A stretch of DNA of 64,000 bases from a virus: UHGV virus genome UHGV-0211740; one strand, written 5' to 3'. Each line of letters begins with the position of its first letter. The first letter of the stretch is position 1. The position numbers were made by a program, and so were the translations under genes. The notes under the pieces were generated by a model. That model was not told the DNA's origin. It saw nothing but the letters and a program-made list of their open reading frames with translations, and searched no databases. Positions 1,438 through 19,069 of the stretch are shown in pieces.

Positions 1438-2441
1438 TGGCAGAGTATAGACGTAGAACATGGCGATTGTTGTTTGGTCGCCCTGTAGAACATGGCGGAA
1501 AATCAAAAACCAATATCCCAAAATCTGTTGAAAAGAAAGGAGAAAGTGATTCTGGAGTTTATGAGGTTAGCTCAGACACAGGTGCTGCCAATATAGAGTT
1601 CGACATACAAAAGGATAACACCAAAGAGCCAAACAAAGGCTATGTGATAGTTTACAACCTGTCTGACGATACGGTTAACTATCTGGACATGCACCAAGCT
1701 GATGCTCTTGCAGTGATGTTTGAGGCTGGCTATGATAATGAGAACCAGTTGATATTCTCAGGAACTGTAGAGTTTGTTGAAGATAGGTGGGAAGGCCCGA
1801 CTAGGAAAACTAAGTTCATCTTCGGAGACGGCACTGAGAATATCATTAAGTGCCAAAGCACCAGATCTTATCAGAAAGGCACACCTCTGGACTCTGTGCT
1901 TAATGACCTCCTGAAGGATATGAACTTACCAAAAGGTAGGGTTGTTGGTTTTGGAAACCAAACTTTGCAATACTCTATGGCTTTCTCTGGGAACACTGCA
2001 GAGAACCTCCGCAGATTTGCAAGACTGACCAACTCAACATTTAGCGTTCAGGATGGGGCTTTGTATTGGACCAAGGTTGGGAAAAGGTTCAAGGACTCTG
2101 TATTTGAAATCAGTGCAGAGTCTGGGATGCACGGATCGCCCACCCCTAAAAACCCAGAGCCTGCGAGAAAACGAAAAGCTAAAGCTGCTGCAAAAGGCGG
2201 TTCAACATCTAAAAAGAAAAAGAAAAACCCGAAAGAGGACGTTGGTCTTACCGTGACAACATGTCTTAACGGGGCTATCCTCCCAGAGTCAACCATCTAT
2301 CTTAAGAGCAGGCAATATACAGGCTTCTACAAGGTGATCACAGTGCACCACAAGGGCACCATCGAAGGAGGTGATTACATTACAGAGCTTGGACTTGGGG
2401 AAGCTGTTGGTGGGGTTGTTGACAAAACTGAGGAGGTATAA
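1437..2441 (+). CDS. hypothetical structural protein with lysine-rich segment
   Basis: ORF track; start overlaps upstream stop (TAATG); KRKAKAAAKGGSTSKKKKK tract. Confidence 0.55.
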   Translation: MAEYRRRTWRLLFGRPVEHGGKSKTNIPKSVEKKGESDSGVYEVSSDTGAANIEFDIQKDNTKEPNKGYVIVYNLSDDTVNYLDMHQADALAVMFEAGYDNENQLIFSGTVEFVEDRWEGPTRKTKFIFGDGTENIIKCQSTRSYQKGTPLDSVLNDLLKDMNLPKGRVVGFGNQTLQYSMAFSGNTAENLRRFARLTNSTFSVQDGALYWTKVGKRFKDSVFEISAESGMHGSPTPKNPEPARKRKAKAAAKGGSTSKKKKKNPKEDVGLTVTTCLNGAILPESTIYLKSRQYTGFYKVITVHHKGTIEGGDYITELGLGEAVGGVVDKTEEV

Positions 2442-3118
2442 TGGCAATAAACAGGAAAGATGCTGCTGTAAGATCCTTTATAGAAAAGATAATGAGGGAC
2501 TACCACACCAGTATTAGAGCCAGAGTTGTCAGTGTAGATTACAGTATCCCCTCTGCAGCCGTGCAGCCAATAGCCGAAACCATGTTTGACGATGGGGATG
2601 TAGAAAGGTACCCTCTTATCTATGATGTCCCAATTCAGGTGATGTCTGCAAATGGTGGTAAGGCAAGGTTAACACTTCCTATTAAAGCTGGTGATGTTGT
2701 AGGGCTGCAATTTTCAGAGAGAAATGAAAACAATAACGATGACCAGCAAACCCACGGCCTGTTTCCAGGATGGGCTATCACCTCTGTTCATTCTGACTCT
2801 AATGCCTTGCAGATCGACCCTGATAATGTAGAGTTATGGAACGACAGGGTTTATTTTAAACTAACACCTTCTGGTGATTTTGAGCTTCAAACACCGGGCG
2901 GAACATTACGGTGCGACAGTAGCGGGGAGTTTTCTTTTACTAACGGAGCTGCCAATTTACGCGCTGCCGTAGATGGGAATATTAGAATGAATGGTGCCAC
3001 AATAGATCCGTCAGGTAGAATCATAACGGCTGCTGGTGTGGATTTGGATTCATTCTATGCAGAATATAAAGGTCATACTCACTCTTGCCCTGATGGCGAG
3101 ACCAGTGGACCGCACTAA
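2441..3118 (+). CDS. putative baseplate or tail spike-like protein
   Basis: ORF track; GAGGAGG RBS; position ahead of baseplate-like gene; assignment tentative. Confidence 0.4.
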   Translation: MAINRKDAAVRSFIEKIMRDYHTSIRARVVSVDYSIPSAAVQPIAETMFDDGDVERYPLIYDVPIQVMSANGGKARLTLPIKAGDVVGLQFSERNENNNDDQQTHGLFPGWAITSVHSDSNALQIDPDNVELWNDRVYFKLTPSGDFELQTPGGTLRCDSSGEFSFTNGAANLRAAVDGNIRMNGATIDPSGRIITAAGVDLDSFYAEYKGHTHSCPDGETSGPH

Positions 3119-3130
3119 TAGAGGGCTTGC

Positions 3131-3847
3131 ATGGCTACGCTTTATAGTGATATATTGATGGACCCGCAGACAGGCGATTTGGCAATAGACAACGGTCTTG
3201 AGTTGATAGATTCAAACCAAATAAGTCTGCGCCAGCGCCTGTGGATGAGGTTTAACACATGGAAGGGGAGCTGGTACTTTGACGAGTTGTTTGGCTTCCC
3301 TTATATGGACTTTCTTAGTAAGAAGGTCATGAAGACTGTTCTTGATAACAAGATTATGGAGGTGGCAAGACAGGAGCCTGATGTGCTAAACATCATAAAC
3401 TTCCAGTCTACCATGGATCGAAGATCGAGAACATACCAGGCGTTCTTTGAGGTTGTTACCAAGGAGAACGAAATTGTAAGACTGGCCTTCGTAGGTCTTG
3501 ATCAGTTCACTTACCCACAACCTGATGATGGAGCAACTTCTCTTTGTGATGATGAAGGCTGGATTAAGTGGGCTAATAAGCTGTACTACCTAATCAACTT
3601 CAGACTACCGAGGACAGGTGATGCCACATGGTGGAACCAGTATGCTGGCCCTGAGATGGAAAACCCGATCCCTGTAGGCTCTTTGTTGACTCAGGATAAA
3701 GATCTGCTGATGACTGAGGCAGAACAAACCATTAACCGTAATACCTGGACGCTTGCTCCAGATGAGCGCGAATACTCTGGCGTTATTGCTACCTCTAATG
3801 ATGAGGCTATTGCCAACCAGTCTGGTCGTGCTATTGATGTTAACTAA
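3131..3847 (+). CDS. baseplate wedge-like protein (gp25/GPW-like N-terminal motif)
   Basis: N-terminal LYSDI...QRLWMRFNTWKGSWYFDELFGFPY resembles the gp25/GPW signature as recalled; no search run. Confidence 0.4.
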   Translation: MATLYSDILMDPQTGDLAIDNGLELIDSNQISLRQRLWMRFNTWKGSWYFDELFGFPYMDFLSKKVMKTVLDNKIMEVARQEPDVLNIINFQSTMDRRSRTYQAFFEVVTKENEIVRLAFVGLDQFTYPQPDDGATSLCDDEGWIKWANKLYYLINFRLPRTGDATWWNQYAGPEMENPIPVGSLLTQDKDLLMTEAEQTINRNTWTLAPDEREYSGVIATSNDEAIANQSGRAIDVN

Positions 3848-3856
3848 GGAGAAATC

Positions 3857-4525
3857 ATGGCTGTAGCTTATCCTACAATACCAATTCCAGATCTTGAAGA
3901 TGCAGAAACAGTCTTGAGCGATGACTTCTTGGTTGTCAACCAGACTGATGGGACAAGAAAGGCTAAGATTGATGATGTTGTCAATGATCTTAGTATTACT
4001 AAGATAGTTTATTTCACAGAGGGTGGTTATCTTAAAAGTAAGAAAGATTTTGCCTACGATCCTGAGACTAAGCGCTACTACACGTGGAACGGGGATTATC
4101 CTAAAATAATCCTTCCTGATTCCACTGTGGAGGGGGCAGGAGGGGTATCTGCAAAAGCCTGGTCTGTTTTTGGAGAGCTTGCTGCAACTTCTTCAGGCAG
4201 GATAGTTGACTACGGGTCTATCGGCGGTCAGTTGGACATGGATCTTAACGTTGCAGACACATTTAAAGTTAGGCTTACTTCGAATACCACAATCTCTTTT
4301 GAAAATCAAACAGAGGGGCTTAACGAGGTGGCAAGAACTGTGACTGTATGCATTACCCAGTCCTCTGGCGGCAACAAGGTTTATTGGCCTGACAATGTTA
4401 AATGGGCCTACGGAAGAGATCCTATCCTAACATTCACAGCTGGTGCAACAGACATTTTCAAGTTAGAAACCTACGATAATGGACTAACTTGGTACGGGGC
4501 ACTGATTATAGCAGGAGCTATCTAA
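3857..4525 (+). CDS. tail fibre/spike protein with shared N-terminal anchor domain
   Basis: AAGGAG RBS; N-terminal ~70 aa homologous to N-terminus of the 7160 gene (DDxLVVxQxDxTRxxKIxDVV ... FxEGG ... DFAY). Confidence 0.5.
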   Translation: MAVAYPTIPIPDLEDAETVLSDDFLVVNQTDGTRKAKIDDVVNDLSITKIVYFTEGGYLKSKKDFAYDPETKRYYTWNGDYPKIILPDSTVEGAGGVSAKAWSVFGELAATSSGRIVDYGSIGGQLDMDLNVADTFKVRLTSNTTISFENQTEGLNEVARTVTVCITQSSGGNKVYWPDNVKWAYGRDPILTFTAGATDIFKLETYDNGLTWYGALIIAGAI

Positions 4526-4526
4526 G

Positions 4527-7124
4527 ATGCGTATTCAACACAACATTGATAACGTATTTCAGATGATTGAGGGGCACAGGAAGTGCCTCGATAATAACAC
4601 AGGTATTACCAACACCACTACACAAAATAAGCTAGTAAACCCTGATGGTCTTATAGCTGCAGGGTGGGCAGGTAATAAGATAAACAATGATTGGGCAATG
4701 CATGAGGCCCAAGCTGTGTTGATTCTGGGGTACATTGAAGCATATAGGGCATCGAAAAGCGATTTCTATCTGGACAGGGCAAAAGAGGCTTGGGAAGCTT
4801 ACAATAGTCATCTCTTGGGAGTATACGCAGTAGAAAGTAAAATGCAAAGACTATCCCACTACCCGTTATCTACTGATGGGGTTCCATCCCATGGTGGGTT
4901 TAAAGATGTGGTGGTGTCTTTTAACAAAGGTAGAGGAAAAATTCCGGCGGGATCTCCGACATGGGGTGAATACCTGGATAAAGCATTCCAGGCGTATAAC
5001 GGTGTGTTGGGAAGAAACACAGTTGATGCGGATGTTTACGGCGGCACAGATGCTAACCCCAACTGGACAACATCCGGATTAAGTTGGTGGGTTGAATGGT
5101 ATATAGCGTGGGACGGTAACCGCTATTGGGCCAACGGCAGCATAGCTGACAGTGGGCACACATCTGCAGAGTTTGGCACAATACAGCTGCAAGATAAGGG
5201 CGTTACAGGTAGCCATAAGGTAACCTACTGTGTGAGATTGCCTCAAGAGCAAGGTGGATCTGTGATACCTTCAGGATCTCCAGTAGTTGTAAACCCTATA
5301 AACGTGGTTGCAGATAATCAGGCTCCGGAATTGGACGGAGAAGAGATGTGGTGTGACGCTTGTTATCAACTCTACTCTTTGACAGGCGAGGAGAAGTATT
5401 ACACTGCGTTTAAACAGTCTTACGACAAGCTGCTTAATTTCAGTGATATAAACGCCTACGACAAACTGTTTAGAAAGACCACGTTGATTAAGGCACCGTT
5501 TACAGATGGTACTTGTCTTGTTGCAGGAACAGTTCCTGCTATGAGCAGGGACAGTGACGGATATATCAACTTTAGAATGAACGCACGCCAGCCCTGCGAG
5601 ATAATTCAAAAAGGTACCACCTACAAAATAGGTAGAGATACTGAAATTGTTATGAATTTCGGGGGAGAAGGTGTTCTGTTCCAGCCTCATTTCATCATTA
5701 ACGATGGCAACAATAATAAAAAACAATACAGAATAGGGGTTCCTTTTGGTGCGGCAGATGTAACAGAGGTAGTTGCCAAAGTTACTGATTTCGTCGAGGT
5801 GGTGGGGAAGGATGGTAACCCGTACCTCCTGCCTGAGGAGGAGAACATTGTCGTAACTGGTGGCGCTAGTGTTAGTATGCAATACGCTACTGACATTTAC
5901 AACCACTCTGACAACTTCTCCCGTTGCAATATAGCAAAAGGTAAAGTAACTTTCAATTTCGGAAGAGAGATTTCTTTAAACTCAGTGACTTACCGATCAG
6001 ATGATGAAATGGTAAGAGTCAAATTCCTTGACAAAGATCGTTGGTTATGGTATGCTGATCTATATGCTACTAACGGACAATGGGTAACAGAAACTCTTAC
6101 TTTAGGGGATTTCAAACTAGACCCAACACAACCTCATCACACCGAGGAGGAGATTAAGCCTTTCTTTGCTAACACCAAAGGTATTACCTCTGTAGATTTC
6201 AGTCTGAGCGATAGACAGATAGGAAATGGCCTGTTTGATCTGTATTGCGTCAATACGCTGCCTCAATTCTATATTGCAGATATGGATGCTTACCTAATCT
6301 GGTTTAGTGTATGGATGGCAAGCAAGACAGAATCGGTTGCTAAAGTTGGCGATTGCTATGTCAGAAACTACAAGCAAGGGGCATACAGACACACTCCAGG
6401 TGTGTTCCCTGCAGGGAAGGTGATAGATAAGGAAAGTTATCTTCTGGAAGAAAAGCCAAATTGGCCCTACCCAGGCATGCAATACCCAGCGGTATATTGT
6501 ATGGGCGCGGAAAACATAGATCGCCTCAGGTTGTCAAATACAATTGGGTTTATGTACGACTCTCAAGTTTGGTATAATAACACATTTAAAACCGAAGGAC
6601 CAGTCGCATCCCGCTACGTGTGGCAGAGAGGTAATGAGGGATTGTCTGGTTGGTGGGAGATGGTAGATAACTCTAAACTCCAGTCAAGATCTTTTGTTGC
6701 TGCGTGCCGCACAATATATGAGCTCAAGAAACATAAAGAGCCTGTTGATGAAAAACTTTTCCTGTTCTGCCAGAGATGGGCATGGTTCCTCAACAGATTC
6801 CAATCATCTCATTCTGGAAATCTTCCCACAGACTTTAACACCTCTGGAGGATATTCTTATCAAGACAGAGGAGACAGGATGTGGGTGGTCGGTGAGTGGC
6901 TTGCAGGTTGCTGCTGGTTAGGCTTGTGTGGGTATTCAGAGACAATACCTCAAATAGATATTGTTGTAGAAGCTTGCATGAAGCTGCTGCAAAAGCACCA
7001 CTTCATTAATGGCGATAATGTTTTAAACGGCTGCTGGGCAGTTTCTGATCCGGTAGGCTATCACTCTGGCGAAATCCTTCGCGGTCTAGGCCTTTATGCT
7101 CAATACCGTGGATTGTACCTTTAA
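4527..7124 (+). CDS. large virion/tail protein, function unknown
   Basis: 865-aa ORF, Trp/Tyr/Gly-rich; GGAG RBS; sits between two anchor-domain proteins. Confidence 0.55.
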   Translation: MRIQHNIDNVFQMIEGHRKCLDNNTGITNTTTQNKLVNPDGLIAAGWAGNKINNDWAMHEAQAVLILGYIEAYRASKSDFYLDRAKEAWEAYNSHLLGVYAVESKMQRLSHYPLSTDGVPSHGGFKDVVVSFNKGRGKIPAGSPTWGEYLDKAFQAYNGVLGRNTVDADVYGGTDANPNWTTSGLSWWVEWYIAWDGNRYWANGSIADSGHTSAEFGTIQLQDKGVTGSHKVTYCVRLPQEQGGSVIPSGSPVVVNPINVVADNQAPELDGEEMWCDACYQLYSLTGEEKYYTAFKQSYDKLLNFSDINAYDKLFRKTTLIKAPFTDGTCLVAGTVPAMSRDSDGYINFRMNARQPCEIIQKGTTYKIGRDTEIVMNFGGEGVLFQPHFIINDGNNNKKQYRIGVPFGAADVTEVVAKVTDFVEVVGKDGNPYLLPEEENIVVTGGASVSMQYATDIYNHSDNFSRCNIAKGKVTFNFGREISLNSVTYRSDDEMVRVKFLDKDRWLWYADLYATNGQWVTETLTLGDFKLDPTQPHHTEEEIKPFFANTKGITSVDFSLSDRQIGNGLFDLYCVNTLPQFYIADMDAYLIWFSVWMASKTESVAKVGDCYVRNYKQGAYRHTPGVFPAGKVIDKESYLLEEKPNWPYPGMQYPAVYCMGAENIDRLRLSNTIGFMYDSQVWYNNTFKTEGPVASRYVWQRGNEGLSGWWEMVDNSKLQSRSFVAACRTIYELKKHKEPVDEKLFLFCQRWAWFLNRFQSSHSGNLPTDFNTSGGYSYQDRGDRMWVVGEWLAGCCWLGLCGYSETIPQIDIVVEACMKLLQKHHFINGDNVLNGCWAVSDPVGYHSGEILRGLGLYAQYRGLYL

Positions 7125-7127
7125 CAT

Positions 7128-7147
7128 AAGGGGGCTGTTTGCCCCCT
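7128..7147 (+). promoter_or_regulatory. intergenic GC hairpin (GGGGGC-loop-GCCCCC)
   Basis: Inverted repeat between stop of 4527 gene and RBS of 7160 gene; no T-tract. Confidence 0.35.
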
Positions 7148-7159
7148 TCAGGAGAAAGA

Positions 7160-9640
7160 ATGGCTGATATTAAAGTTGTCAGAATTGAATCTCTTCCTGC
7201 CACCACAGCAGTGGCAGAGGATGATTACCTGGTTGTTCAACAACCAGACCTGACCCGTCGTGTAAAAATTGGCGATGTTGTCCATGTGGATGGGACTGTT
7301 TCTCATGTGATCTCCTTTAAGGAAGGTGGTAAGTTAAATGGCCCAATGGATTTTGCCTACTTCGAAGAGGAAGACCTCTACCTGCGTTGGAAGGGCGAAT
7401 TCCCGCACACTGTTCCTGCACTGTCCTCACCATACTCTGATGGCGGTATTACTGATGCCACATGGATGGTATATACAGACCCTTCCTTAAGAGAGGAGCT
7501 GGAATCAACAATTGGCGCATCCATGATTATGACAGCCGAAGGGCAGTCTGTCCAGGATGTAATGGATGTTACAGTTAAGACAGCCAACGATGCTAAAGCG
7601 CTTGCACAGCGGGTGGATTTTGGCACTGTGCACACAGTGGGTGATGTTATTCACCTGGATAATTTTGTTGGCCCTGCAGTTATTGAAGAGGGAAGAACCA
7701 CCAACTATCCTTCTGAAGCCACTGGTGAAAAATTTCTGAACGGTGTGGTATCTCGTCGTGATACTACAACTGTTGATGGCATTTTCCGTGGCGCTACCTC
7801 TGGAGCTATGTACACCATTGCAGTAACCAACGGTGTCGCAACAACAAAAAGAATAGCCCTTCGTGATGAATTTAAACGCCTGGAGGCAAGCAACCCAACA
7901 AGAACAGTTATCCGTGCTGGAGATGATTTAAACACGGCAGGGTACTTGCAGCTTGATGCAACAGGCCGTTGGGGTATGTGGAACCAACAAACAGCTTCGT
8001 GGCAACCTCTTGCTATAGAGCAAGGCGGTACAGGGGCCAGAGATGCCGCAGGTGCACGTATTAACTTAGGGGCTTTCTATAAGCAACGTGCAGCCCTTGA
8101 GCCAAATTTCAATATCAATAACTTGACTGGTAATCAGGATGGTGTATACTACCAGCCGATGACTGCTTATGCAACCGAGGCAAATGGTTACCCTGCAGGT
8201 TCTGGTGCTGGTCACTTGATTGTTTGGCAGAACAATGCTAACGGCGGTACAGGTTGTCGTCAGGAATACTACCCGTTCTCTAACGTGGATGTTTGGTATC
8301 TGAGAACCTACCAAGCCAACACAAACCAGTGGACTGCATGGCAGCCGATGGTCAGACCTCGTAACGATGATACCTTTAGAGCGCACATCGGTCTTGGTTC
8401 CAGAAATTCCCCTACCTTCGGGCACCTTTACCTGTCTCAAAGCTCTGCGGATGTTAAGTCAGCATCAGGTATTGTTCACGGAGACAAATACAGTGCTGAC
8501 GGCGTTCTTGAGCATGGGTATAGAATTTACTCCGAGGTAAGAAACGACAATAAGGCTTGGTTGACAATCCACCTCCACAAAGGTGCAAAAGGGTCTGAAA
8601 CTCATAGATATTTAGGCTTCCGTGAAGACGGTGTGTTAGATTGTCCTAAATATATGCAGGTTGGTGATCTGAACGGTCAGCTGGCAAACTGGGGACTTGG
8701 AGAATGGATCCGCAGTTCAGGAGCAGAAAGAGGTTTCTGGGGATCCAAGAAAGCCGCCAAGATGGTCATCTGGGATGGCGGTATGGATGAGCAAGGTGAA
8801 GGCACTCTGGAATGGGGTGTTTATAACAACCGCAAGGCTAAATGGGAACCTTTGCCGATAGGTTGCGGTGGCACCAGTGCTAGGACTGTGGGAGATGCCC
8901 AGGCACAATTCAGAATCCCTCTTGCAGCAGGTGTCAGACCATATATAAACCTGCCTAGAACTGCAGCGATGCAGGATGGCAAGTATTATCCGATTATTGT
9001 CAGAACAGATCCTAACCATGCGCCAACAATCGGGACAGATTTAACCATCGTTACCAGATCTTCTTCTGGCAGCGATCCTATGAACTGTGCTACACTGCAG
9101 TGCCACTACAGAACTGGTGGCTGGACTGATCGTGGTGACTTCTTTACCGGGTCGATAAATTTCTACCAGAAGGAGAAGGCGATACTTGGGTGCGTTGCTC
9201 CAACAAGGGGTAAACAAGAGTATGTTGCGTTCTATGTAGAGGCACGTGCCTTCCCTGTAACAGTGTATGCCAGCGCTGACGTAATAGAGGTGTCAACAAG
9301 AGAGGCAGACTGGCAGGTTGGCAATGTAACAGACAACCAAGACGGTGTTAAATTCTGTGCACCTCTAGCATCTGCTGACTTGAATCTAGCAATCAAAGGT
9401 GACAATGTAACAAACACTCGACCTCTGGCTGAATTTAATGGTGTAACAGGTTTCTACACCAATCAGTGGATGTATCGTGGGTCTTCTGACAGATATTTCC
9501 TGTCCAATAAAACAGAGTTTGGCCTGACAGAGTTATGGTGCAACGGTCTTAACTACATCTGCCCAGGTAGTCAGACTACTCGAAAAGCACTGTTCTCTAA
9601 CGCAGGGTTCCAGGCTGATAGGAAAGAACAGAGGATCTGA
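7160..9640 (+). CDS. tail fibre/tailspike protein, N-terminal and central part
   Basis: ORF track 7139..9640; ATG at 7160 after AGGAGAAA; N-terminal anchor domain paralogous to 3857 gene; ends at TGA 9638-9640. Confidence 0.65.
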   Translation: MADIKVVRIESLPATTAVAEDDYLVVQQPDLTRRVKIGDVVHVDGTVSHVISFKEGGKLNGPMDFAYFEEEDLYLRWKGEFPHTVPALSSPYSDGGITDATWMVYTDPSLREELESTIGASMIMTAEGQSVQDVMDVTVKTANDAKALAQRVDFGTVHTVGDVIHLDNFVGPAVIEEGRTTNYPSEATGEKFLNGVVSRRDTTTVDGIFRGATSGAMYTIAVTNGVATTKRIALRDEFKRLEASNPTRTVIRAGDDLNTAGYLQLDATGRWGMWNQQTASWQPLAIEQGGTGARDAAGARINLGAFYKQRAALEPNFNINNLTGNQDGVYYQPMTAYATEANGYPAGSGAGHLIVWQNNANGGTGCRQEYYPFSNVDVWYLRTYQANTNQWTAWQPMVRPRNDDTFRAHIGLGSRNSPTFGHLYLSQSSADVKSASGIVHGDKYSADGVLEHGYRIYSEVRNDNKAWLTIHLHKGAKGSETHRYLGFREDGVLDCPKYMQVGDLNGQLANWGLGEWIRSSGAERGFWGSKKAAKMVIWDGGMDEQGEGTLEWGVYNNRKAKWEPLPIGCGGTSARTVGDAQAQFRIPLAAGVRPYINLPRTAAMQDGKYYPIIVRTDPNHAPTIGTDLTIVTRSSSGSDPMNCATLQCHYRTGGWTDRGDFFTGSINFYQKEKAILGCVAPTRGKQEYVAFYVEARAFPVTVYASADVIEVSTREADWQVGNVTDNQDGVKFCAPLASADLNLAIKGDNVTNTRPLAEFNGVTGFYTNQWMYRGSSDRYFLSNKTEFGLTELWCNGLNYICPGSQTTRKALFSNAGFQADRKEQRI

Positions 9641-10959
9641 TCAACAACACCTTTACCTCTAAATGTGGCAATGGTGCCGCGCTGAAAGGTCAGGCAGAGT
9701 TCAGATCTACTCCAGAGGCTGGTCAGGTTATTGTTCGTGATGTTGTAGGCACAGCCCATAGATTCTACAATTTCAACAAAGATGGCACTTTCTCAGCCCC
9801 TGGTGGTTTTGTATGCCACACGGGTGGTGACTGGAACAACCAGTTTGGGCCTAACAACCCGTCAAAAATAATGGCTGGTAATGTCAATGGGCCTGAGGGT
9901 TCGATGGTCGTTGGTGGATTGTCTGTGGCGTTTTCTGGAAACTATGCTTTCCAAATGGCTGGTCGCCTTGATCGATTATACACCAGGTCTATCGAGGGAG
10001 GTAACCATAGGGCGTGGAACAAAGTCATACAACACAGAGGCCAGGGTCTGGGGACAGACGATCTTAATAGCTATGATGGAACTCGTGACGGTATCTATCA
10101 TCAGGGTGCAAATTCTGACGCACTCACATCCCGTCATTATCCTGCTCCGTACGCTGGTACGCTGATTGTTTATCAGAACACTGCTAACCAGTTGACAGGG
10201 TGTGTGCAGGAGTATATAACCTATTTTGGTGACAGGTATACTCGTGCTGGCAACACGAATGGTGAAGATTTTGTTTGGGAAGAGTGGAGACACGATGCGG
10301 GTAAGGGAATCCAGTTAAGACCTAATTACACTTTTGGTGAAACCAGTAATCAACTGGAAATTCATGTCGGTGCTAATGGTCTTCCCTCCAACGCAGATGG
10401 CTTACCTAAGAATGATGCTGTACTCCATTATTGGGGTAACGGCAGCACAGGGGATCGTCCAAACGTGTTAGAGTTTAAGGTTCGTGACGAGTCTCAAGCA
10501 AATTGGGTATGGCATTGCGGTACCTTGCCAGATAACTCAAGATATCTTTCTGTAAATGGTGCTGTGAATTGCACATCTGTCAATCAGAGTTCTGACAGAG
10601 ACCTGAAAGATAACATATCTGTTATTCCTGATGCGTTAGAAGCTATCCGGAAGATGAAGGGTTATACTTACACTCTTAAAGAGAACGGTATGCCTTATGC
10701 AGGTGTTATAGCACAAGAGGTGCTTGAAGCGCTGCCGGAAGCAGTTAGCTCTTTCGTGCAAAGAAAGGAAATCCCAAACCCTGATCAAGATGGAACTCCT
10801 TTGATAACAGAGGAAAGATTCTACAGCGTGGATTACGCAGCCGTAACAGGCTTGCTTGTCCAGGTTTGCAGGGAACAGGATGATAAAATAACCGCCCTTG
10901 AGGAGCAGGTTAAAAAATTGACAGAGGTTGTTACTGGGTTGCAAGAGAAATTGAAGTAA
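9622..10959 (+). CDS. tail fibre C-terminal part with intramolecular chaperone (peptidase S74-like) domain; -1 frame relative to 7160..9640
   Basis: Frame open from 9622 with no start codon before ATG 9871 and no RBS there; C-terminus has SDRDLKDNI...GVIAQEV...coiled coil. Confidence 0.55.
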   Translation, partial: ERTEDLINNTFTSKCGNGAALKGQAEFRSTPEAGQVIVRDVVGTAHRFYNFNKDGTFSAPGGFVCHTGGDWNNQFGPNNPSKIMAGNVNGPEGSMVVGGLSVAFSGNYAFQMAGRLDRLYTRSIEGGNHRAWNKVIQHRGQGLGTDDLNSYDGTRDGIYHQGANSDALTSRHYPAPYAGTLIVYQNTANQLTGCVQEYITYFGDRYTRAGNTNGEDFVWEEWRHDAGKGIQLRPNYTFGETSNQLEIHVGANGLPSNADGLPKNDAVLHYWGNGSTGDRPNVLEFKVRDESQANWVWHCGTLPDNSRYLSVNGAVNCTSVNQSSDRDLKDNISVIPDALEAIRKMKGYTYTLKENGMPYAGVIAQEVLEALPEAVSSFVQRKEIPNPDQDGTPLITEERFYSVDYAAVTGLLVQVCREQDDKITALEEQVKKLTEVVTGLQEKLK

Positions 10960-10966
10960 CTGTTTT

Positions 10967-10996
10967 GCCCTCGCTTCGGCGGGGGCTTTTTGTTTG
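10967..10996 (+). terminator. rho-independent terminator
   Basis: 8-bp stem with TTCG loop followed by TTTTTGTTTG. Confidence 0.6.
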
Positions 10997-10998
10997 TA

Positions 10999-11027
10999 TT
11001 GCGTATTAACTTAAAATCTGGTAAAAT
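10999..11027 (+). promoter_or_regulatory. putative promoter with extended -10 (TGG TAAAAT)
   Basis: TAAAAT preceded by TG; weak -35 TTGCGT at 17-nt spacing. Confidence 0.35.
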
Positions 11028-11058: not shown

Positions 11059-11649
11059 ATGTTTTTATGGGAAAGGCCTAGATACCTTCCAGATATTAGA
11101 TTAGAGTTGCTGGCAGATATTGTCACGTTTAAAAGCCCGTTTACAGGTAAAACGCAAAAAGTAACCTATGCCACACCTAACTGGAAAGGCACTTTGACGG
11201 TTTCCAATATTAGCGAATCGCAGTTGCTTGAGCTCAAGAGTTTTGTTGACCAAGTTTACAAAGATGGGAATATCTTTCTTATCAAAACTTATGGTCATTC
11301 GGTGACAGCCAATGAGCCAATCGCTCTCGGACCGACTGGTAACGACGATTTTTTGAAGACGGTTGGTTGGGAGCCGAACAGGGATATAGCCAGAGCTGGG
11401 GATAAGATATCTGTTAATGATGAGTTGAAAGTGGTAACAGCTCCAGTACGTAGTGATGGTGTTGGGGCCGCTGTTATAAACATATCTCCAAGACTTAGGA
11501 AACCTATTGCAGCAGGGGATACTATGAAGATAATAACTCAATCCCCGAAGGGTAGGTTTCATATCAGAGATATTTATAAAATTAAGCAAAAAGTTGATGC
11601 TATGCAAAAAGGCGATAATATAGTTATCAATTTCTTTGAGGATTTCTAA
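11059..11649 (+). CDS. tail tip module protein (distal tail/minor tail-like, tentative)
   Basis: GGAGG RBS; first of three small genes before the J-like gene. Confidence 0.5.
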   Translation: MFLWERPRYLPDIRLELLADIVTFKSPFTGKTQKVTYATPNWKGTLTVSNISESQLLELKSFVDQVYKDGNIFLIKTYGHSVTANEPIALGPTGNDDFLKTVGWEPNRDIARAGDKISVNDELKVVTAPVRSDGVGAAVINISPRLRKPIAAGDTMKIITQSPKGRFHIRDIYKIKQKVDAMQKGDNIVINFFEDF

Positions 11650-11650
11650 G

Positions 11651-12202
11651 ATGATCAGAGCTCCATTAGATAATTTATTTATTGAAAATATAGAGCTTGA
11701 TGGCGTTGAGATCTTAATTGCTGCAAAACTGGAGCTACCAACAGGAACTGTCAGGGTGTGCTCAGGCACTGGTGTTGTAGTAATTGAAGGGCAACATTTT
11801 ATAGGTATAGGTGGATCAGCTACATTAACTGCTGTGTCGGAGAAAGATGCCACCAACTTCGGATCTGTGGTAGCAACATTGAACGGGTTTGACCCTAAAT
11901 ATGTTGGTGATTTGTTGAAGACTGAGTATTCAGGTTGTCGTGCCACGTTATACATTACAGCCATGGAGAATGGTCTGCCAGTAACCACTAATGGCTTGTT
12001 TGACGGACTTATAACAGATATGGCTATTCAGACAGGAGAGAATAGTGCTCTATCTATATCCATATCTTCAATCTTCAACAGCTGGCTAAGAGGGTTCCCT
12101 TATCGCTACACAGAAGAAAGTCATAGCTCAAGAAACGACAACGATAGATTTTTTAAATATGTGGATCAGGTGGCTAGTCGCCCGATCATTTGGGAGGTTT
12201 AA
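11651..12202 (+). CDS. tail tip module protein
   Basis: ORF track 11636..12202; ATG 11651 right after upstream stop with GAGGA RBS. Confidence 0.5.
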   Translation: MIRAPLDNLFIENIELDGVEILIAAKLELPTGTVRVCSGTGVVVIEGQHFIGIGGSATLTAVSEKDATNFGSVVATLNGFDPKYVGDLLKTEYSGCRATLYITAMENGLPVTTNGLFDGLITDMAIQTGENSALSISISSIFNSWLRGFPYRYTEESHSSRNDNDRFFKYVDQVASRPIIWEV

Positions 12203-12630
12203 TGAGTATCATACATCCTCGTTTAGTAGACTGGCAAGAAAGATTGTTGAAGGTGTTTGACGAAGAGTCAGCCGTTCCGTTCGAGTGGGGATTTCACGAT
12301 TGTTGCACTTTTGCAGCCAAGTGTGTTGATGCTCAGTATGGAACAGATATTCTCTCTAACTTCGAAGGCACGTACAAAACAGAACTGGAAAGTAAGAGAT
12401 GGTGTATGTTACATTTCAAAACCACCAACTTGCCTACCATTTTTGATCTCTTTATGACCAGACTGGATACTCCTAAACAGGTTCAGCGTGGAGATATTGT
12501 TATTTTCAAAGGTCTGAACGGACTTACCGCTGGCGTGTTTTGGAACAATCAGATTTGGTCAAAAGGTGATAAAGGGGTCTTTATGTTTGACATGAAAGAT
12601 TCTATCGTTGTTGATGTCTGGAGGTATTAA
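12202..12630 (+). CDS. putative tail-associated cysteine peptidase (NlpC/P60-like, tentative)
   Basis: ORF track 12190..12630; ATG 12202 with GGGAGG RBS; FHDCCTF motif; position like lambda gpK. Confidence 0.35.
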   Translation: MSIIHPRLVDWQERLLKVFDEESAVPFEWGFHDCCTFAAKCVDAQYGTDILSNFEGTYKTELESKRWCMLHFKTTNLPTIFDLFMTRLDTPKQVQRGDIVIFKGLNGLTAGVFWNNQIWSKGDKGVFMFDMKDSIVVDVWRY

Positions 12631-15600
12631 TGCCAATTGCAATGATTGATAACATCGTTGCTTCTGCAAGATCTTCGAGCTATGACTGGAACGCATCCAA
12701 GGCGGCTCTGGCTGACAGTCTGAACACTGTTACCACCAGAACTCTGGATAAGATTTTTGAGGGCAACAAATCTTACAGAGGCCAGCAAGATAGACAAAAG
12801 CTTCTCAGATCTTCAGCTGCACCTTGTTCTGTAGTGTATGGGAAGACACGCACATCGGGATTGCTTGCGTTTTTGGAGCAGGACAGGGACAGAACCCTCC
12901 ATTGTGCCATTGTTCTTGCCAATCACCCTCTGGAAGGTGTAGAAGACATACTTATCGACGGTAATCCTATTTCTTCATATGGAGATTTGGTATCGTGGGA
13001 GCTGCATAACGACAGAAAAACATCTGATCCTTTCATGGGGACACACTGCCCTTCGTGGTCACCAGACATGATAGGTAGAGGGATCAGTTGGCTGCGTGCC
13101 AGCTTCAAATTTGACCCTAACAAGTTTCCTTTTGGGTTGCCAAACGTTACACTCGTCAAGGTTGGTAAAAAATGCTATGATCCTCGCATCAGCAAAGAGG
13201 TGTATACCAATAACGCGGCCTTGGTGATTCTGGACTATTTAAGAACATACCTTAAATGTCCTGACGAAACCATCAACTGGGAGTCCTTCAAGGAAGCTGC
13301 CAACATATGTGACGAGGCTGTAAGAAACGCTGACGGAACCAGTGAGCGTCGTTACACCATCAATGGTGAGTTCGACATGGATGAGGCTCCAGCAAGCATC
13401 ATGGCAGAAATGCTGAAAGCCTGTGGTGCAGATCTTAGCTATGTGGCTGGTAAGTATGGATTGCTGGTTGGGGCCTATTATGGACCAGCAACAATGACAC
13501 TGGGTGAGGATTGTGTTTGTGGTGAAGTCAAGATCTATCCAGAAGCTTCCTTTGACAAAAGATCCAACACAATAACTGGTAGATTCACCAGTCCTGCCAA
13601 AGGATACTCTGAAACAGATTTCCCATCAGTGTTTGTTCCAGAGTGGATAGAGAAGGATGGGGAAAGAAAGATAATCGATATAGATTATCGTTTTGTCACC
13701 AGTCCTTATCAGGCCCAGCGTGTTTCCGCGATATTCTTAAGACGTGCCAGAGCTGGTAGGATTATTGAAGTCACGTGCAATATGCGTGGTTTTAAATTTA
13801 AGCCTGGACGCTACGTCACAATGAACCTCCCAAGTATTGGCATAGTAGGCCAAGAGATGAGAGTTCTTGAGTGGGAGTTCACTAAAAAGGGCGGTGTTAA
13901 GGTAAAACTTCGTCAAGATGCGAAAGAGTGGAATGATGCCACAGGTCAACTTCCTGACTCTGGTGATGTAGATATTCCTGTGTCCCCATCTGGTGTGGCT
14001 CAACCGCAAAACTTCAGATTCTCTGTTCTTCAAGCTGGAGAAGTAACTCATGGTGTTTTAGCTTGGGACAACGTTGGGACTTACGCTCAAAACATTGTGC
14101 AGGTCAGGAAAAATGGAGAGATTGTCTGGACAGCACAGACAGTTGAGCAGTTTGTCCGTGTTGAAGGTCTGACTAAAGGGTCTTACACAGCCACTGTTGT
14201 TGCAACATCTTATAAAGGCGGTGTATCTCCAGAAGCGTACTGTGAGTTTAACATTCAGGCACCTGAGGCTCCGGTTTCTGTAGAAGTTAAGCAGGGATAT
14301 TTTGCTATCACCTTAATTCCGCACAGCAGGGATTTAGCAAGTGTCAGCACCCAGTATGACTTTTGGACATCCGGCATGACAAGGTTGCCTGACACTAGTG
14401 ATGCAACCGTCACTTCAAAAGCTACTCGCATGGGTGTTGGTTCAACTTGGACATCTGAAGGTCTGCAGAACGATAAGGTTTATTATTGGTATATTCGAAC
14501 CACAAACGCTTTTGGTAGTTCTCAGTTTGTAGAGTGTGCTGCACGCTGCTATACCTCTATTGAAGATTTGATGCCTCAGATAGATGCTGAATTTAAAAAG
14601 ACAGAGACTTATAAAGAGTTGATGAGCACTTTAGATTCTTCTATCGAAGAGGTTGAAAATCGGGTCACAGAACTTAACAAGTACATGGATGGTAGAGTTG
14701 ATGAAGCTTTTGATCACATGGAAAGTGAGTTCTCTAGAGTAGACAAGCTGTATGCTCAGCTGGGAGATAGGGTAGGGGTATTCATCCAAGAAACCAGTGA
14801 AAACTTCCAAGATGTTAATGGAACGCTTACCGCTCTCGACCAGAAACTGGTAGCCACTCAGAACAAGTTTACAGATGATCTCTCTAAAGAAAGTGGCAAG
14901 CTAACCTCTCTGATCCAGACCACTAACAAAGCTACAACTGATCTTCTTAATAAGAAAACAGAAGCTTTGGACGAGAAGATTGTTTCGACCAGGGGCGAGT
15001 TGGAAGATGCTTTAGCACAGGAAAGCGCTGAGCTGAACTCTCTGATTGTATCTACCAATAAAACGACTACAGATCTCCTTAATCAGAAAACCGAGGCACT
15101 GGACAATAAGCTGACGGCAACGAAAGGTGAGTTGACCAACAACTTGAATAATGAGAGTGCTAAACTGTCGTCGTTGATTGAGACAACCAACAAATCCACC
15201 ACTGATCTTCTTAACAAGAAAACAGATGCGTTGGATGAAAAACTGGTTGCTGCACAGGGTGAGCTAACTGAGCAGATTGGCGATGTTGAAAAAGGTTATC
15301 TGGCTGGAGATAAGAGCCTAGAAGGTAAGTTGAATACTCAGAGATCTGAGTTGGATGCAAGCATTCTGAGTACTAATCAGGCTACTGTGGATTTGCTGAA
15401 TAGAACTTCTCAGACTCTTGACCAGAAGATTAGCCAGACTAACGCCACGGTATCTAAAAACTACACCACTCTAGATGGCAAGATCAACACCACCAAATCT
15501 GATCTCAATACGTTGATCTCTACCACCAACAAGGCCACAACGGACCTGCTGAATCAGAAAACTGCAGCCTTATCTGAACAATTAACCTCTGCTAAAGGGC

Positions 15601-16775
15601 AGATTACAACCAACACCAATAATATTACGGGGTTGGATAATAAGCTTACCCAAGCTAAGAAAGATTTGTCTGCAAATATTTCTGAAACTAATCAGGCCAC
15701 TGTTGACCTGATTAACGGAACAGCGTCAGCTATTCGTCAAGAACTTGCTGTTGCTAAGCAGGAGATCATTGATGATGTTGGAGATGTGTCCGAGATCAGG
15801 GCTGCAGTAGCTACAACATCTAAGGCTGTAACCGACTTAGAGGGCAAAGTAAACGCTCAGTGGGGCACAAAAATACAGGTAGACTCCGCAGGGAATAAAT
15901 ATGTTGCAGGTATCCAGTTGGGGATGGAAGGGTCTGGGGGCCAAGTTCAATCCTACTTCATGGTTAGTGCAAACAATTTTGCGGTATATAACCCTGGGAA
16001 TGGAACAGCAACCCTTGCCTTTGCAATCAAGAACAACCAGGCGTTCTTGAAAGATGCCTTCATAGAGAATGGCACAATCTCTTCAGCCAAGATTGCACAA
16101 GAGATTTCGTCAAACAACTACGATGGCAACGGGTACCACAAATACGGCTGGTATATTAACAAGAATGGGCACGCCCAGTTTATGGATGTGTGGGTGAAAG
16201 GCAACATCAACGCTAGTGCAGGTAACTTCACAGGAGCAGTTAACGCCACCAGCGGTACCTTCCGTGGCGATGTTTATGCCAACAACGGTAGTTTTAGAGG
16301 TACCATAGACGCAACAGGTGGTACTTTCCGTGGGCGTGTAGAAGCTTCTGTTATCCGTGCCAACCAGTTTGAAGGTGCAATTGTTGCACACAGGACCTAT
16401 GGTGACTGTCCTCCGGTATATAACTCCCAGCAGAGGGTTTGCCGCTGGAAATGGAGATATGTGGATAACGTGCAAGGCCAAGGTAAGAACGTAACATTCT
16501 TCTTTAAACTGAACGGTACGCTCGCCAGCTCCCAGCTTAACGTTTGGATAGCCGGACATCAAATCCTTGCAGGTAAGAAGTACGGAAACGACAACAACGG
16601 CATGTGTGCGGTAGGGATAACGGGTCTAGGTGAACAGACCATAGACATTATCGTTGAAATTTACACACCATGGTCAACGTCAAGCGTGACAGGAGTTACA
16701 ATATCTTGTCCTACTGTTGTGGTGAGCCGATCCAACTCAAGTTTCCAAGGCCCTTGGAACGAGTCTCACGACTAA
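12630..16775 (+). CDS. host specificity / central tail fibre protein (lambda gpJ-like)
   Basis: 1381 aa; N-terminal region with gpJ-like motifs (VILDYLRTYL); six ~44-aa coiled-coil repeats; C-terminal GxFRG repeats. Confidence 0.6.
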   Translation: MPIAMIDNIVASARSSSYDWNASKAALADSLNTVTTRTLDKIFEGNKSYRGQQDRQKLLRSSAAPCSVVYGKTRTSGLLAFLEQDRDRTLHCAIVLANHPLEGVEDILIDGNPISSYGDLVSWELHNDRKTSDPFMGTHCPSWSPDMIGRGISWLRASFKFDPNKFPFGLPNVTLVKVGKKCYDPRISKEVYTNNAALVILDYLRTYLKCPDETINWESFKEAANICDEAVRNADGTSERRYTINGEFDMDEAPASIMAEMLKACGADLSYVAGKYGLLVGAYYGPATMTLGEDCVCGEVKIYPEASFDKRSNTITGRFTSPAKGYSETDFPSVFVPEWIEKDGERKIIDIDYRFVTSPYQAQRVSAIFLRRARAGRIIEVTCNMRGFKFKPGRYVTMNLPSIGIVGQEMRVLEWEFTKKGGVKVKLRQDAKEWNDATGQLPDSGDVDIPVSPSGVAQPQNFRFSVLQAGEVTHGVLAWDNVGTYAQNIVQVRKNGEIVWTAQTVEQFVRVEGLTKGSYTATVVATSYKGGVSPEAYCEFNIQAPEAPVSVEVKQGYFAITLIPHSRDLASVSTQYDFWTSGMTRLPDTSDATVTSKATRMGVGSTWTSEGLQNDKVYYWYIRTTNAFGSSQFVECAARCYTSIEDLMPQIDAEFKKTETYKELMSTLDSSIEEVENRVTELNKYMDGRVDEAFDHMESEFSRVDKLYAQLGDRVGVFIQETSENFQDVNGTLTALDQKLVATQNKFTDDLSKESGKLTSLIQTTNKATTDLLNKKTEALDEKIVSTRGELEDALAQESAELNSLIVSTNKTTTDLLNQKTEALDNKLTATKGELTNNLNNESAKLSSLIETTNKSTTDLLNKKTDALDEKLVAAQGELTEQIGDVEKGYLAGDKSLEGKLNTQRSELDASILSTNQATVDLLNRTSQTLDQKISQTNATVSKNYTTLDGKINTTKSDLNTLISTTNKATTDLLNQKTAALSEQLTSAKGQITTNTNNITGLDNKLTQAKKDLSANISETNQATVDLINGTASAIRQELAVAKQEIIDDVGDVSEIRAAVATTSKAVTDLEGKVNAQWGTKIQVDSAGNKYVAGIQLGMEGSGGQVQSYFMVSANNFAVYNPGNGTATLAFAIKNNQAFLKDAFIENGTISSAKIAQEISSNNYDGNGYHKYGWYINKNGHAQFMDVWVKGNINASAGNFTGAVNATSGTFRGDVYANNGSFRGTIDATGGTFRGRVEASVIRANQFEGAIVAHRTYGDCPPVYNSQQRVCRWKWRYVDNVQGQGKNVTFFFKLNGTLASSQLNVWIAGHQILAGKKYGNDNNGMCAVGITGLGEQTIDIIVEIYTPWSTSSVTGVTISCPTVVVSRSNSSFQGPWNESHD
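14900..15770 (+). repeat. in-frame tandem repeats (~132 bp units, degenerate later) encoding coiled-coil segment
   Basis: Repeated L(N/S)SLIxTTNKATTDLLNxKTxALDxKL units visible in DNA and protein. Confidence 0.7.
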
Positions 16776-18371: not shown

Positions 18372-18382
18372 GGCGGCGAGAT

Positions 18383-19069
18383 ATGGCAGAGATTAAGTCG
18401 GATGTCAACCACATCCACACTCTGCCAGATTTTGTTCAGGGAGGTCTTGACTACCTGCCTGGAGATTTTCTGGCTGAGAAGGTTAATTTGGTCACATTCT
18501 TAACCGTGTACCTTAAAAGGTTGGAGGATGTTGATAAGATGCTGGTAGGTTTGGCTGAAGGAAGATTGCTTAACAATGCCAGCGGAAGATACCTTGACGA
18601 GGTAGGAAATCAGCTTGGCATTCTTAGGAACGGGCTTTCAGATGCCGATTTTCGTGCCACACTAATTATTCAGCAGGCAGCATCCTCAAGGGGTGGGACT
18701 AGAGAAGATGTCATCTCCACTTTGCGACAATTGTTCGGAAGAAATAATTTCGATACGTGGAAAGGTGACAACTTCAGGTTTGACATAAATATTAGAAAAA
18801 CTTGCTTTGATATACTGCAGTCTATCGATCAGATCTTAGATATGCTACCGCTGCCTTGCCATTTGCGGCTTACAGAGTCGCAGGGGCAAGCTTTTGGCTT
18901 TGAAGGGGACTCAACAGCTCTCGGTTTCGGATCAGTGTGGGAAGAAAACCAGTTCGGAGTTGGTGGATTGGCTACTTTATTGTACGTTCCTGACGTAAGA
19001 CCTGATTGGGACACCACAACCATTTATTGTGAAAGTATTACAGTGAACGCAACTAGACAGGAGGGTTAA
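18383..19069 (+). CDS. hypothetical structural protein
   Basis: ORF track; operon context. Confidence 0.5.
   Translation: MAEIKSDVNHIHTLPDFVQGGLDYLPGDFLAEKVNLVTFLTVYLKRLEDVDKMLVGLAEGRLLNNASGRYLDEVGNQLGILRNGLSDADFRATLIIQQAASSRGGTREDVISTLRQLFGRNNFDTWKGDNFRFDINIRKTCFDILQSIDQILDMLPLPCHLRLTESQGQAFGFEGDSTALGFGSVWEENQFGVGGLATLLYVPDVRPDWDTTTIYCESITVNATRQEG

What the first reader, a model, noticed from the sequence alone, without database searches (positions are those of the whole stretch)
3857..7450. Two different tail proteins share one N-terminal anchor domain
The first ~70 residues of the 222-aa protein (3857) and of the large fibre (7160) align clearly (DDxLVVxQxDxTRxxKIxDVV ... FxEGGxL ... DFAY) while the rest differs. 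This is the pattern seen when alternative receptor-binding proteins dock to the same virion site. The 865-aa protein lies between them.
Basis: seen in the sequence. Interest (0 to 1): 0.5.

Follow-up and report, generated by a model that had tools for sequence, protein, structure and literature searches.

The report
Shared tail-fibre anchor in rV5-like phage
Two tail proteins of this rV5-like E. coli phage start with the same roughly 105-residue attachment module. This is an ordinary way for phages to hang several appendages on one baseplate, but here it suggests which genes build the still-unassigned fibres of rV5/phi92-type phages.

Summary
The 222-aa protein (3857-4525) and the large fibre (from 7160) share their first ~105 residues: 37% identity, BLASTP E=5e-18, z=30 against shuffles. 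The rest is unrelated.

The window is a Vequintavirus (rV5-like myophage). The two proteins are the homologues of rV5 gp43 and gp41, and the 865-aa protein between them is gp42.

The shared module has two parts:
- "segA" (aa ~5-46) has no Pfam family and no solved structure.
- A Tail_spike_N "head" domain (PF18668, aa 47-105) matches the heads of CBA120 tailspikes and G7C gp63.1.

The same pairing recurs in Seunavirus, in phi92-like phages (segA only, including endosialidase gp143) and in Mydovirus (three segA proteins). The module is also fused to many different enzymes, so an anchor role is well supported.

The "alternative proteins for one site" reading is weaker. rV5 virions contain gp41, gp42 and gp43 together, and the paralogous anchors are only 35-38% identical.

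The C-terminal domain of the 222-aa protein always lies directly upstream of an 865-aa-type gene, even in a T7-like podophage, where a T7 fibre anchor replaces the N-terminus. The small protein is therefore probably an adaptor that carries the 865-aa protein.

The large fibre gene in this window is broken by a 1-nt deletion.

The parts
3857..4525 (+). [quoted passage not shown]
   Evidence: ORF with AAGGAG RBS. phrog_7760 'tail fiber protein' E=4.5e-117. 95-100% identical in 119 phage records.
3857..3994 (+). segA of the 222-aa protein (aa 1-46). Conserved motif, h = hydrophobic: h-x-h-x-x-L-P-x-A ... D-x-h-h-h-x-Q-x-D-x-T-[RK]-K
   Evidence: z=11.5 against the fibre's segA. segA HMM E=7.5e-21. 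No Pfam family and only a marginal PDB match. AF2 pLDDT 40-55 as a monomer.
3995..4171 (+). Tail_spike_N 'head' domain of the 222-aa protein (aa 47-105)
4190..4522 (+). C-terminal beta-sandwich domain (aa 112-222, phi92 gp140-like); proposed docking domain for the 865-aa protein
   Evidence: AF2 pLDDT 80-90. It is the only part shared with phi92-like gp140. It lies directly upstream of a gp141-like gene in every cassette examined.
4527..7124 (+). Gene for the 865-aa tail protein (rV5 gp42, phi92 gp141-like); proposed cargo of the 222-aa adaptor
   Evidence: phrog_2871. It starts 1 nt after the stop of the 222-aa gene, and its RBS lies inside that gene. 33-34% identical to the Seunavirus and phi92-like homologues. 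No Pfam or PDB sequence match. The AF2 model is poor.
7131..7147 (+). GC-rich hairpin (GGGGGC-TGTT-TGCCCCC) between the 865-aa gene and the fibre gene
   Evidence: Read directly from the sequence. Phage Murica annotates terminators in this region.
7160..9640 (+). N-terminal 826-aa ORF of the large fibre (rV5 gp41 homologue), truncated by a frameshift
   Evidence: phrog_6578. 92% identical to residues 1-822 of Bas59 gp0026.
7160..7297 (+). segA of the large fibre (aa 1-46)
   Evidence: segA HMM E=6.7e-20; alignment.
7298..7474 (+). Tail_spike_N head domain of the large fibre (aa 47-105)
   Evidence: PF18668 E=1.7e-9, 38 bits. PDB sequence matches to 9occ gp13, 9lna and 9d84.
9617..9618 (+). Site of a 1-nt deletion (GCTG[C]AT in relatives) that breaks the fibre reading frame
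   Evidence: DNA alignments with Bas59, rV5_ev168 and EcoIv14a_Aya. tblastn shows the frame switch 9616/9622.
9622..10959 (+). C-terminal ~446 codons of the fibre in another frame (the listed ORF starts at ATG 9871), including the Peptidase_S74 intramolecular chaperone
   Evidence: tblastn 92% identity to Bas59 residues 825-1270. PF13884 E=2.5e-14.

Best explanation
The window is the baseplate and fibre region of an rV5-like myophage (Vequintavirus). The 222-aa protein (rV5 gp43) and the large fibre (gp41) are two different appendages that are both built into the same virion. Each plugs into the baseplate periphery through a homologous N-terminal module. The module consists of a ~45-residue segment (segA) that probably folds only in the trimer or on docking, followed by one Tail_spike_N 'head' domain. 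SegA is the constant element. In phi92-like phages it alone precedes the tip domain of gp140 and the catalytic domain of endosialidase gp143. Its docking partner is probably a conserved baseplate part (the wedge), not the 865-aa protein. The two anchors are old paralogues, so they most likely occupy related but distinct sockets rather than competing for one. The 222-aa protein is most likely an adaptor, not a receptor binder: its N-terminus docks to the virion and its C-terminal beta-sandwich holds the 865-aa glycosidase-like protein, which has no anchor of its own. Shown: the homology, the domain content, the modular distribution, the gene adjacency and the virion presence (in rV5). Inferred: the docking itself, the socket identity and the adaptor-cargo contact.
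For: - Homology: 37% identity over 99 aa, E=5e-18, z=30. Both proteins carry PF18668 above its cutoff.
- Recurrence of the pairing: Seunavirus gp052c/gp050c 46% identity over 98 aa, E=8e-30. phi92-like bas60_0024/bas60_0027 share segA, and phi92 gp143 begins with segA. Mydovirus has three consecutive segA proteins.
- Modularity: about 20 clusters (50% identity) carry the full module at residue 1, with lengths of 110-1599 aa. Their C-termini include beta-helix, alginate lyase, SASA esterase and S74 fibres.
- Co-display: rV5 gp41, gp42 and gp43 were all found by virion proteomics, and the gp43 N-terminus resembled the P22 tailspike head-binding domain by HHpred (PMC3606486).
- Partner is not the 865-aa protein: the whole Mydovirus genome has segA proteins but no gp141-like gene and no gp140-like C-terminal domain.
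- Adaptor idea: tblastn of the 222-aa protein (534 records) and of a gp141-like protein (532 records) gives nearly the same organism tallies, and the coordinates are adjacent. The gene upstream of gp141-like ends in the same C-terminal domain in a T7-like podophage (N-terminus = Pfam Phage_T7_tail), in Rosemountvirus and in a Vibrio Ackermannviridae phage. The gene junctions overlap or are at most 11 nt apart.
- The 222-aa protein is 95-100% conserved across 119 records, whereas the large fibre is mosaic.
Against: - No physical interaction was tested, and no multimer prediction was possible with these tools.
- SegA is modelled with low confidence (pLDDT 40-55) and has no structural precedent.
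- No T4 gp10-like XD docking domain was found in the window, so the CBA120 mechanism cannot simply be transferred.
- Identity values of the C-terminal domain and of gp141-like proteins do not co-vary across lineages (r=0.23).
- The 865-aa model is too poor (pLDDT 54) to show a docking surface.
- The 2026 phi92 cryo-EM study could not fit gp140 into any fibre density (PMC13450770).
- Virion presence is taken from rV5, not from this phage, whose large fibre gene is frameshifted.
Confidence: 0.7

Rival explanations
1. One reading: the 222-aa protein and the large fibre are alternative receptor-binding proteins that compete for the same docking site, giving mixed or switchable virions.
For: The anchors are homologous over ~105 residues. 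The general principle holds in other phages, where a conserved N-terminus carries a swapped C-terminus. In this window the large fibre is frameshifted, so the small protein could in principle take over its sites.
Against: rV5 virions contain both proteins (PMC3606486). The pair is conserved as a pair in Vequintavirus, Seunavirus and Justusliebigvirus, and Mydovirus has three. The paralogous anchors are only 35-38% identical, while the two Vequintavirus orthologue pairs compared are 98-99% identical; that argues for separate constraints, meaning separate sockets. The 222-aa protein is nearly invariant and tied to the 865-aa gene, which is unlike a host-range determinant.
Confidence: 0.15
2. The shared region is not an anchor. 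It would be a generic structural or carbohydrate-binding 'neck' domain that happens to sit near the N-terminus, with attachment achieved elsewhere.
For: Pfam names PF18668 a 'receptor binding N-terminal domain'. In hundreds of proteins the domain is internal, at residues ~70-380. The precise role of the D1/D2 heads is not fully settled in the literature read.
Against: SegA always starts at residues 1-10. phi92 gp140 and gp143 keep segA but lack the head domain. In the podophage orthologue the whole N-terminus is replaced by the T7 fibre N-terminal domain, a known tail anchor. Neither protein has any other candidate attachment region.
Confidence: 0.1
3. The 222-aa protein is a short fibre in its own right, whose C-terminal domain binds a host receptor. 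The 865-aa protein would be attached independently, or would be an assembly factor, and the adjacency would reflect co-regulation only.
For: PHROGs annotate the C-terminal domain as a tail-fibre tip in many families. No co-variation with gp141-like proteins was seen (r=0.23). The same domain ends longer fibre proteins in some phages.
Against: The adjacency is strict and the junctions overlap across very different phages. Both are absent together in Mydovirus. In T7-like Atoyac23 the only fibre gene is the 270-aa anchor-plus-domain protein, and the 934-aa protein has no anchor of its own. gp42-type proteins are virion components.
Confidence: 0.25

Closest known systems
Branched tailspike complex of Ackermannviridae phage CBA120 (TSP1-4), and G7C gp63.1/gp66
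   Different: In CBA120 and G7C the heads dock on T4 gp10-like XD domains of a scaffold tailspike. No such domain was detected in this window. Here an extra ~45-residue segA precedes a single head. SegA is absent from the G7C-type protein checked and gave only one marginal match (E=0.14) in a profile search of all PDB chain sequences. SegA can also act without the head, as in phi92 gp140 and gp143.
phi92 multivalent adsorption apparatus (gp140-gp143; fibres I-III)
   Same: The gene order is orthologous: sheath initiator, small protein, gp141-like, then receptor-binding protein(s), then wedge. gp140 and endosialidase gp143 share segA.
   Different: phi92-like small proteins are 157 aa and lack the head domain. 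The receptor-binding protein at the third position is an enzyme, not a 1270-aa fibre. The cryo-EM papers read do not mention the shared N-terminus and leave fibre II and the arm of fibre I unassigned.
Adaptor-mediated tailspike attachment in K1-5/K1E/SP6 (gp37 adaptor), and anchor-branch receptor-binding proteins of Klebsiella KP32-type phages
   Same: A small protein with a tail-specific N-terminal anchor carries a separately encoded enzyme. The Atoyac23 orthologue of the 222-aa protein has the T7 gp17-type N-terminal anchor.
   Different: The cargo-binding domain here (gp140-like beta-sandwich) and the cargo (gp141-like, ~860-990 aa) were not shown to be related to those systems. The comparison rests on my own knowledge of those systems plus the description in PMC13450770, not on a test here.
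P22 tailspike head-binding domain
   Same: An N-terminal particle-binding domain precedes a variable body. The rV5 authors reported HHpred similarity of the gp43 N-terminus to 2VNL.

Membership tests
Pfam PF18668 Tail_spike_N (TSP1/Gp66 N-terminal domain) | HMM match above the curated gathering score (25 bits) | tested here: met
   222-aa protein 40.6 bits (aa 51-104); fibre 38.0 bits (aa 46-103).
Pfam PF18668 Tail_spike_N (TSP1/Gp66 N-terminal domain) | Fold of the CBA120 TSP D1/D2 head and the G7C gp63.1 N-terminal domain | tested here: met
CBA120/G7C-type branched receptor-binding complex | A scaffold tailspike with T4 gp10-like XD2/XD3 docking domains encoded in the same genome | tested here: not met
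CBA120/G7C-type branched receptor-binding complex | Physical complex between the head-bearing proteins and the scaffold | not testable with these tools
   Needs multimer prediction, pull-down or cryo-EM.
Modular receptor-binding proteins with a conserved N-terminal anchor and an exchangeable C-terminus | The same N-terminal module at residue 1 of proteins with unrelated C-terminal domains | tested here: met
   the module precedes beta-helix, alginate lyase, SASA esterase, endosialidase, S74 fibres and the small tip domain.
Modular receptor-binding proteins with a conserved N-terminal anchor and an exchangeable C-terminus | The N-terminal module mediates incorporation into the virion | not testable with these tools
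   Indirect support only: both proteins are in rV5 virions, and a T7 fibre anchor replaces the module in the podophage orthologue.
Adaptor-plus-cargo fibre (K1-5/SP6 gp37-like logic) | The adaptor gene and the cargo gene are inherited together, with the anchor exchanged to fit the tail type | tested here: met
   Organism tallies of the hit sets are nearly identical and the coordinates are adjacent. Three unrelated cassettes have different N-termini. Both genes are absent together in Mydovirus.
Adaptor-plus-cargo fibre (K1-5/SP6 gp37-like logic) | Direct binding of the cargo to the adaptor's C-terminal domain | tested here: inconclusive
   Only a co-variation proxy could be run, and it gave r=0.23. 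The 865-aa model is too poor to use.
P22 tailspike head-binding domain | Structural similarity to 2VNL | not tested
   Reported by HHpred in PMC3606486. P22 was not among the hits.

The most novel reading that the evidence does not exclude
Two linked ideas remain open. First, segA may be an undescribed ~45-residue 'plug' that lets two or three different appendages per virion use one family of sockets on the wedge of rV5-, phi92-, Seunavirus- and Mydovirus-type baseplates. Second, the 222-aa and 865-aa genes may form a mobile adaptor-plus-enzyme cassette that moves between myophages, T7-like podophages and jumbo phages simply by exchanging the adaptor's N-terminal anchor. If both hold, phi92 gp140+gp141 and gp143 would be the two segA-anchored appendages, which would assign the fibre densities that the 2026 cryo-EM study left open.
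Probability: 0.4. Interest if true: 0.6.

Novelty: new member of a known kind. Interest (0 to 1): 0.42.

Why it matters
rV5- and phi92-type phages are common, broad-host-range coliphages used in therapy and biocontrol. According to the BASEL paper and the 2026 phi92 cryo-EM paper, it is still unclear which genes form which fibre.

Recognising segA as the common plug gives a concrete and testable wiring diagram. So does recognising the small protein as the likely adaptor of the 865-aa enzyme. Together they define a short N-terminal module that could be used to graft new receptor-binding domains onto these phages.

The bare observation, however, is an instance of a well-known design principle.

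Tried and rejected
- **Compositional or chance similarity:** rejected by the shuffle test and the compositionally adjusted E-value.
- **865-aa protein as the docking scaffold for segA:** rejected. The whole Mydovirus genome has three segA proteins but no gp141-like gene.
- **Small co-variation check of segA against candidate partners across three genera:** only suggestive, with too few residues and lineages.
- **Mirror-tree of the C-terminal domain against gp141-like proteins:** r=0.23, no support.
- **Structure of the 865-aa protein:** only 4 homologues could be used. The model had mean pLDDT 54, and the Foldseek hits (GH101 EngBF, jelly-roll and CBM proteins, TM about 0.1) are not reliable.
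- **Searching PDB and Pfam for segA:** only a marginal match to crAss001 gp22 (E=0.14) and no Pfam family.
- **G7C-type protein IME11_90 as a segA carrier:** it has none. The tblastn hit was to its internal head domain.
- **Programmed frameshift at 9617/9618:** rejected. There is no slippery heptamer, and three relatives simply carry one more base.
- **Schwarzer et al. 2012 (phi92):** could not be read because it is not held, so I cannot exclude that the gp140/gp143 N-terminal similarity was noted there.
Full report
**Identity of the window.** A megablast of 3000-11000 finds 124 phage records, almost all Vequintavirus (rV5-like myophages). The best is 95.7% identical (EcoIv14a_Aya), and Bas59 EduardKellenberger and the rV5 variants are about 88-90% identical. 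From the annotated relatives and the phi92 cryo-EM nomenclature, the gene order is:

| Window coordinates | Gene product |
|---|---|
| 133-1044 | tube initiator |
| 1057-1437 | plug |
| 1437-2441 | hub |
| 2441-3118 | central spike |
| 3131-3847 | sheath initiator |
| 3857-4525 | 222-aa protein (rV5 gp43) |
| 4527-7124 | 865-aa protein (gp42) |
| from 7160 | large fibre (gp41) |
| 11059-16775 | lambda-like Dit/J module |
| 16881-19069 | wedge proteins |
| downstream | further fibres |

**The observation.**
- BLASTP aligns residues 8-105 of the 222-aa protein with 7-105 of the fibre at 37% identity, E=5e-18.
- The Smith-Waterman score is 30 standard deviations above shuffles. Both halves are significant separately (z=11.5 and 17.4), and the rest of the proteins are unrelated (z=1.1).
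- No other ORF in the window has the module.

**Anatomy of the shared module.**
- The second half (aa 47-105) is Pfam Tail_spike_N in both proteins, above the gathering score.
- PDB sequence matches are to tailspikes and fibres: 9occ gp13, 9lna, 9d84, G7C gp63.1 and CBA120 TSP1/3/4.
- An AF2 model of the 222-aa protein has pLDDT 76-84 here and 80-90 in a C-terminal beta-sandwich. The first 46 residues ('segA') reach only 40-55.
- In CBA120 these D1/D2 'heads' are homologous among TSP1, TSP3 and TSP4. They sit at the very N-terminus of TSP1 and TSP3, the two tailspikes that lack any further N-terminal region and are assembled into the branched complex through the TSP4 N-terminal region (PMC8825819).
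- SegA has a clear motif (alignment A3), but no Pfam family and only a marginal PDB match.

**The pairing recurs, and segA is the constant part.**
- Seunavirus GEC_vB_MG has a 224-aa protein and, two genes downstream, a 712-aa colanidase-like protein. Their first ~100 residues are 46% identical, E=8e-30.
- In phi92-like PaulScherrer the small protein is 157 aa. It consists of segA joined directly to the C-terminal domain, with no head domain.
- The 624-aa tailspike in the gp143 position of PaulScherrer begins with segA. So does the phi92 endosialidase gp143 itself, where segA runs straight into the catalytic part.
- In Mydovirus VLCpiM5a, three consecutive genes between sheath initiator and wedge (635, 1531 and 275 aa) all begin with segA.

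**Modularity.**
- A full HMMER scan of 1.84 billion representatives found 525 proteins with E of 0.001 or better.
- About 20 clusters have segA plus head at residue 1, with lengths from 110 to 1599 aa. Many others have only the head, at internal positions.
- C-terminal partners include right-handed beta-helix, alginate lyase, SASA esterase, hydrolase and S74-chaperone fibres.
- Within Vequintavirus the large fibre is a mosaic that always keeps its first ~330 residues.

**Are the two proteins alternatives, or displayed together?**
- rV5 total-virion proteomics detected gp41, gp42 and gp43. The authors noted HHpred similarity of the gp43 N-terminus to the P22 tailspike head-binding domain (PMC3606486).
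- The two anchors are 35-38% identical to each other, whereas the two Vequintavirus orthologue pairs compared are 98-99% identical.
- Together with the conserved pairs and the Mydovirus triple, this favours simultaneous display on related but distinct sockets over competition for one site. The choice of socket remains an inference.

**What segA docks to.**
- I first suspected the 865-aa protein.
- That is contradicted by Mydovirus. Its complete genome (four loci covering 1-141724) has three segA proteins, no gp141-like sequence and no gp140-like C-terminal domain.
- The partner is therefore more likely a conserved baseplate part.
[quoted passage not shown] It left fibre II and the arm of fibre I unassigned, and its text mentions neither gp141 nor gp142.

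**The 865-aa protein is not a bystander.**
- tblastn with the 222-aa protein (534 records) and with a gp141-like protein (532 records) gives almost identical organism tallies. Outside Vequintavirinae, only the C-terminal domain of the small protein matches.
- Where both lists show a record, the two matches are adjacent: brunost, SE4, Vibrio K353 and VP-1, BAU.Micro_ELP-22 and nepoznato.
- I fetched three unrelated cassettes:
  - In the T7-like Aeromonas phage Atoyac23, the 270-aa 'tail fiber protein' is Pfam Phage_T7_tail (aa 24-135) plus the gp140-like domain (aa 176-264). It overlaps the start of a 934-aa gp141-like gene.
  - Rosemountvirus brunost_67 (207 aa) has another N-terminus plus the same domain.
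  - Vibrio VP-1 has a 117-aa ORF that is the domain alone.
- The junctions are overlaps, or gaps of at most 11 nt. In the window the gap is 1 nt and the RBS lies inside the upstream gene.
- The most economical reading is that the small protein is an adaptor. An exchangeable N-terminal anchor fits the host phage's tail, and the constant C-terminal domain holds the gp141-like protein.
- Two checks did not add support. The identity-based co-variation was r=0.23, and the AF2 model of the 865-aa protein was poor (pLDDT 54), so its fold matches are unreliable.

**State of the large fibre gene here.** The window lacks one base between 9617 and 9618 (GCTG-AT here, GCTGCAT in Bas59, rV5_ev168 and EcoIv14a_Aya). 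As a result the ~1270-codon gene is split into 7160-9640 and a C-terminal part that includes the S74 intramolecular chaperone. There is no slippery site. This is either a sequencing error or an inactivating mutation.

**Verdict.** The shared N-terminus is genuine and is best explained as a virion-attachment module, which is a known design principle (CBA120, G7C, T7-like and K1-5-type systems). In the papers I could read, it is not described for this family. The new elements are:
- the definition of segA as the constant plug;
- the natural Mydovirus 'experiment' against gp42 as its socket;
- the adaptor-plus-cargo cassette.

All docking steps remain inferences that multimer modelling, pull-downs or cryo-EM could settle.

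Noticed in passing
window 9617-9618 (fibre gene 7160-10959): A 1-nt deletion relative to three close relatives splits the ~1270-codon large fibre gene. The S74 chaperone part ends up in another frame. This is either a sequencing error or a natural knockout.
   Followed up: yes
window 11059-16775: A siphophage-style tail-tip module sits inside a myophage baseplate cluster. It comprises a Dit-like protein (phrog_1302), a DUF6950 protein, and a 1381-aa J-like protein with Phage_Tail_Tip and Ig_J domains and a long repetitive coiled region. It is the rV5 gp37 homologue, which BASEL annotates as a lateral fibre.
   Followed up: no
window 7131-7147: A GC-rich hairpin (GGGGGC TGTT TGCCCCC) lies between the 865-aa gene and the fibre gene, immediately before the fibre's RBS. 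It may be an attenuator or terminator.
   Followed up: no
L005 9669-12458 vs L004 12345-15221: The gp141-like proteins of Seunavirus GEC_vB_MG and phi92-like PaulScherrer are 77% identical, although their sheath initiators and wedge proteins are only ~31-32% identical. This implies horizontal exchange of this gene between subfamilies.
   Followed up: partly
P0015/P0016 and L007 3401-6091: Metagenomic proteins with segA plus head continue with a stretch (SFVRIWKY...VTVIIG) that also occurs in the G7C-type gp66-like protein IME11_90. The stretch may be a gp10-like XD docking region. If so, some segA proteins are themselves branch points.
   Followed up: no
/ one search hit lists: About 18-23 GenBank records of rV5-like or phi92-like genomes are labelled 'Campylobacter phage' with host Campylobacter jejuni. 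This looks like carry-over or mislabelling of coliphages.
   Followed up: no
window 21154-22194, 22209-22793, 23206-24252: Two paralogous short tail fibres (346 and 348 aa) share N- and C-termini. A lambda-gpK/Mu-gpU-type assembly chaperone lies between them. This is a second, different case of shared fibre ends in the same window.
   Followed up: no
window 24540-26285 and L006 11863-14277: The 581-aa fibre has an N-terminus of a different anchor type (…TIPTVRKAMLDNLYFK…), shared with phi92 gp150 and Mydovirus M5a_00180. The window therefore uses at least three distinct anchor families.
   Followed up: no
window ~32000-40000: GC skew and AT skew change sign between about 32 and 40 kb, which marks a block of genes on the minus strand after the fibre cluster.
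   Followed up: no
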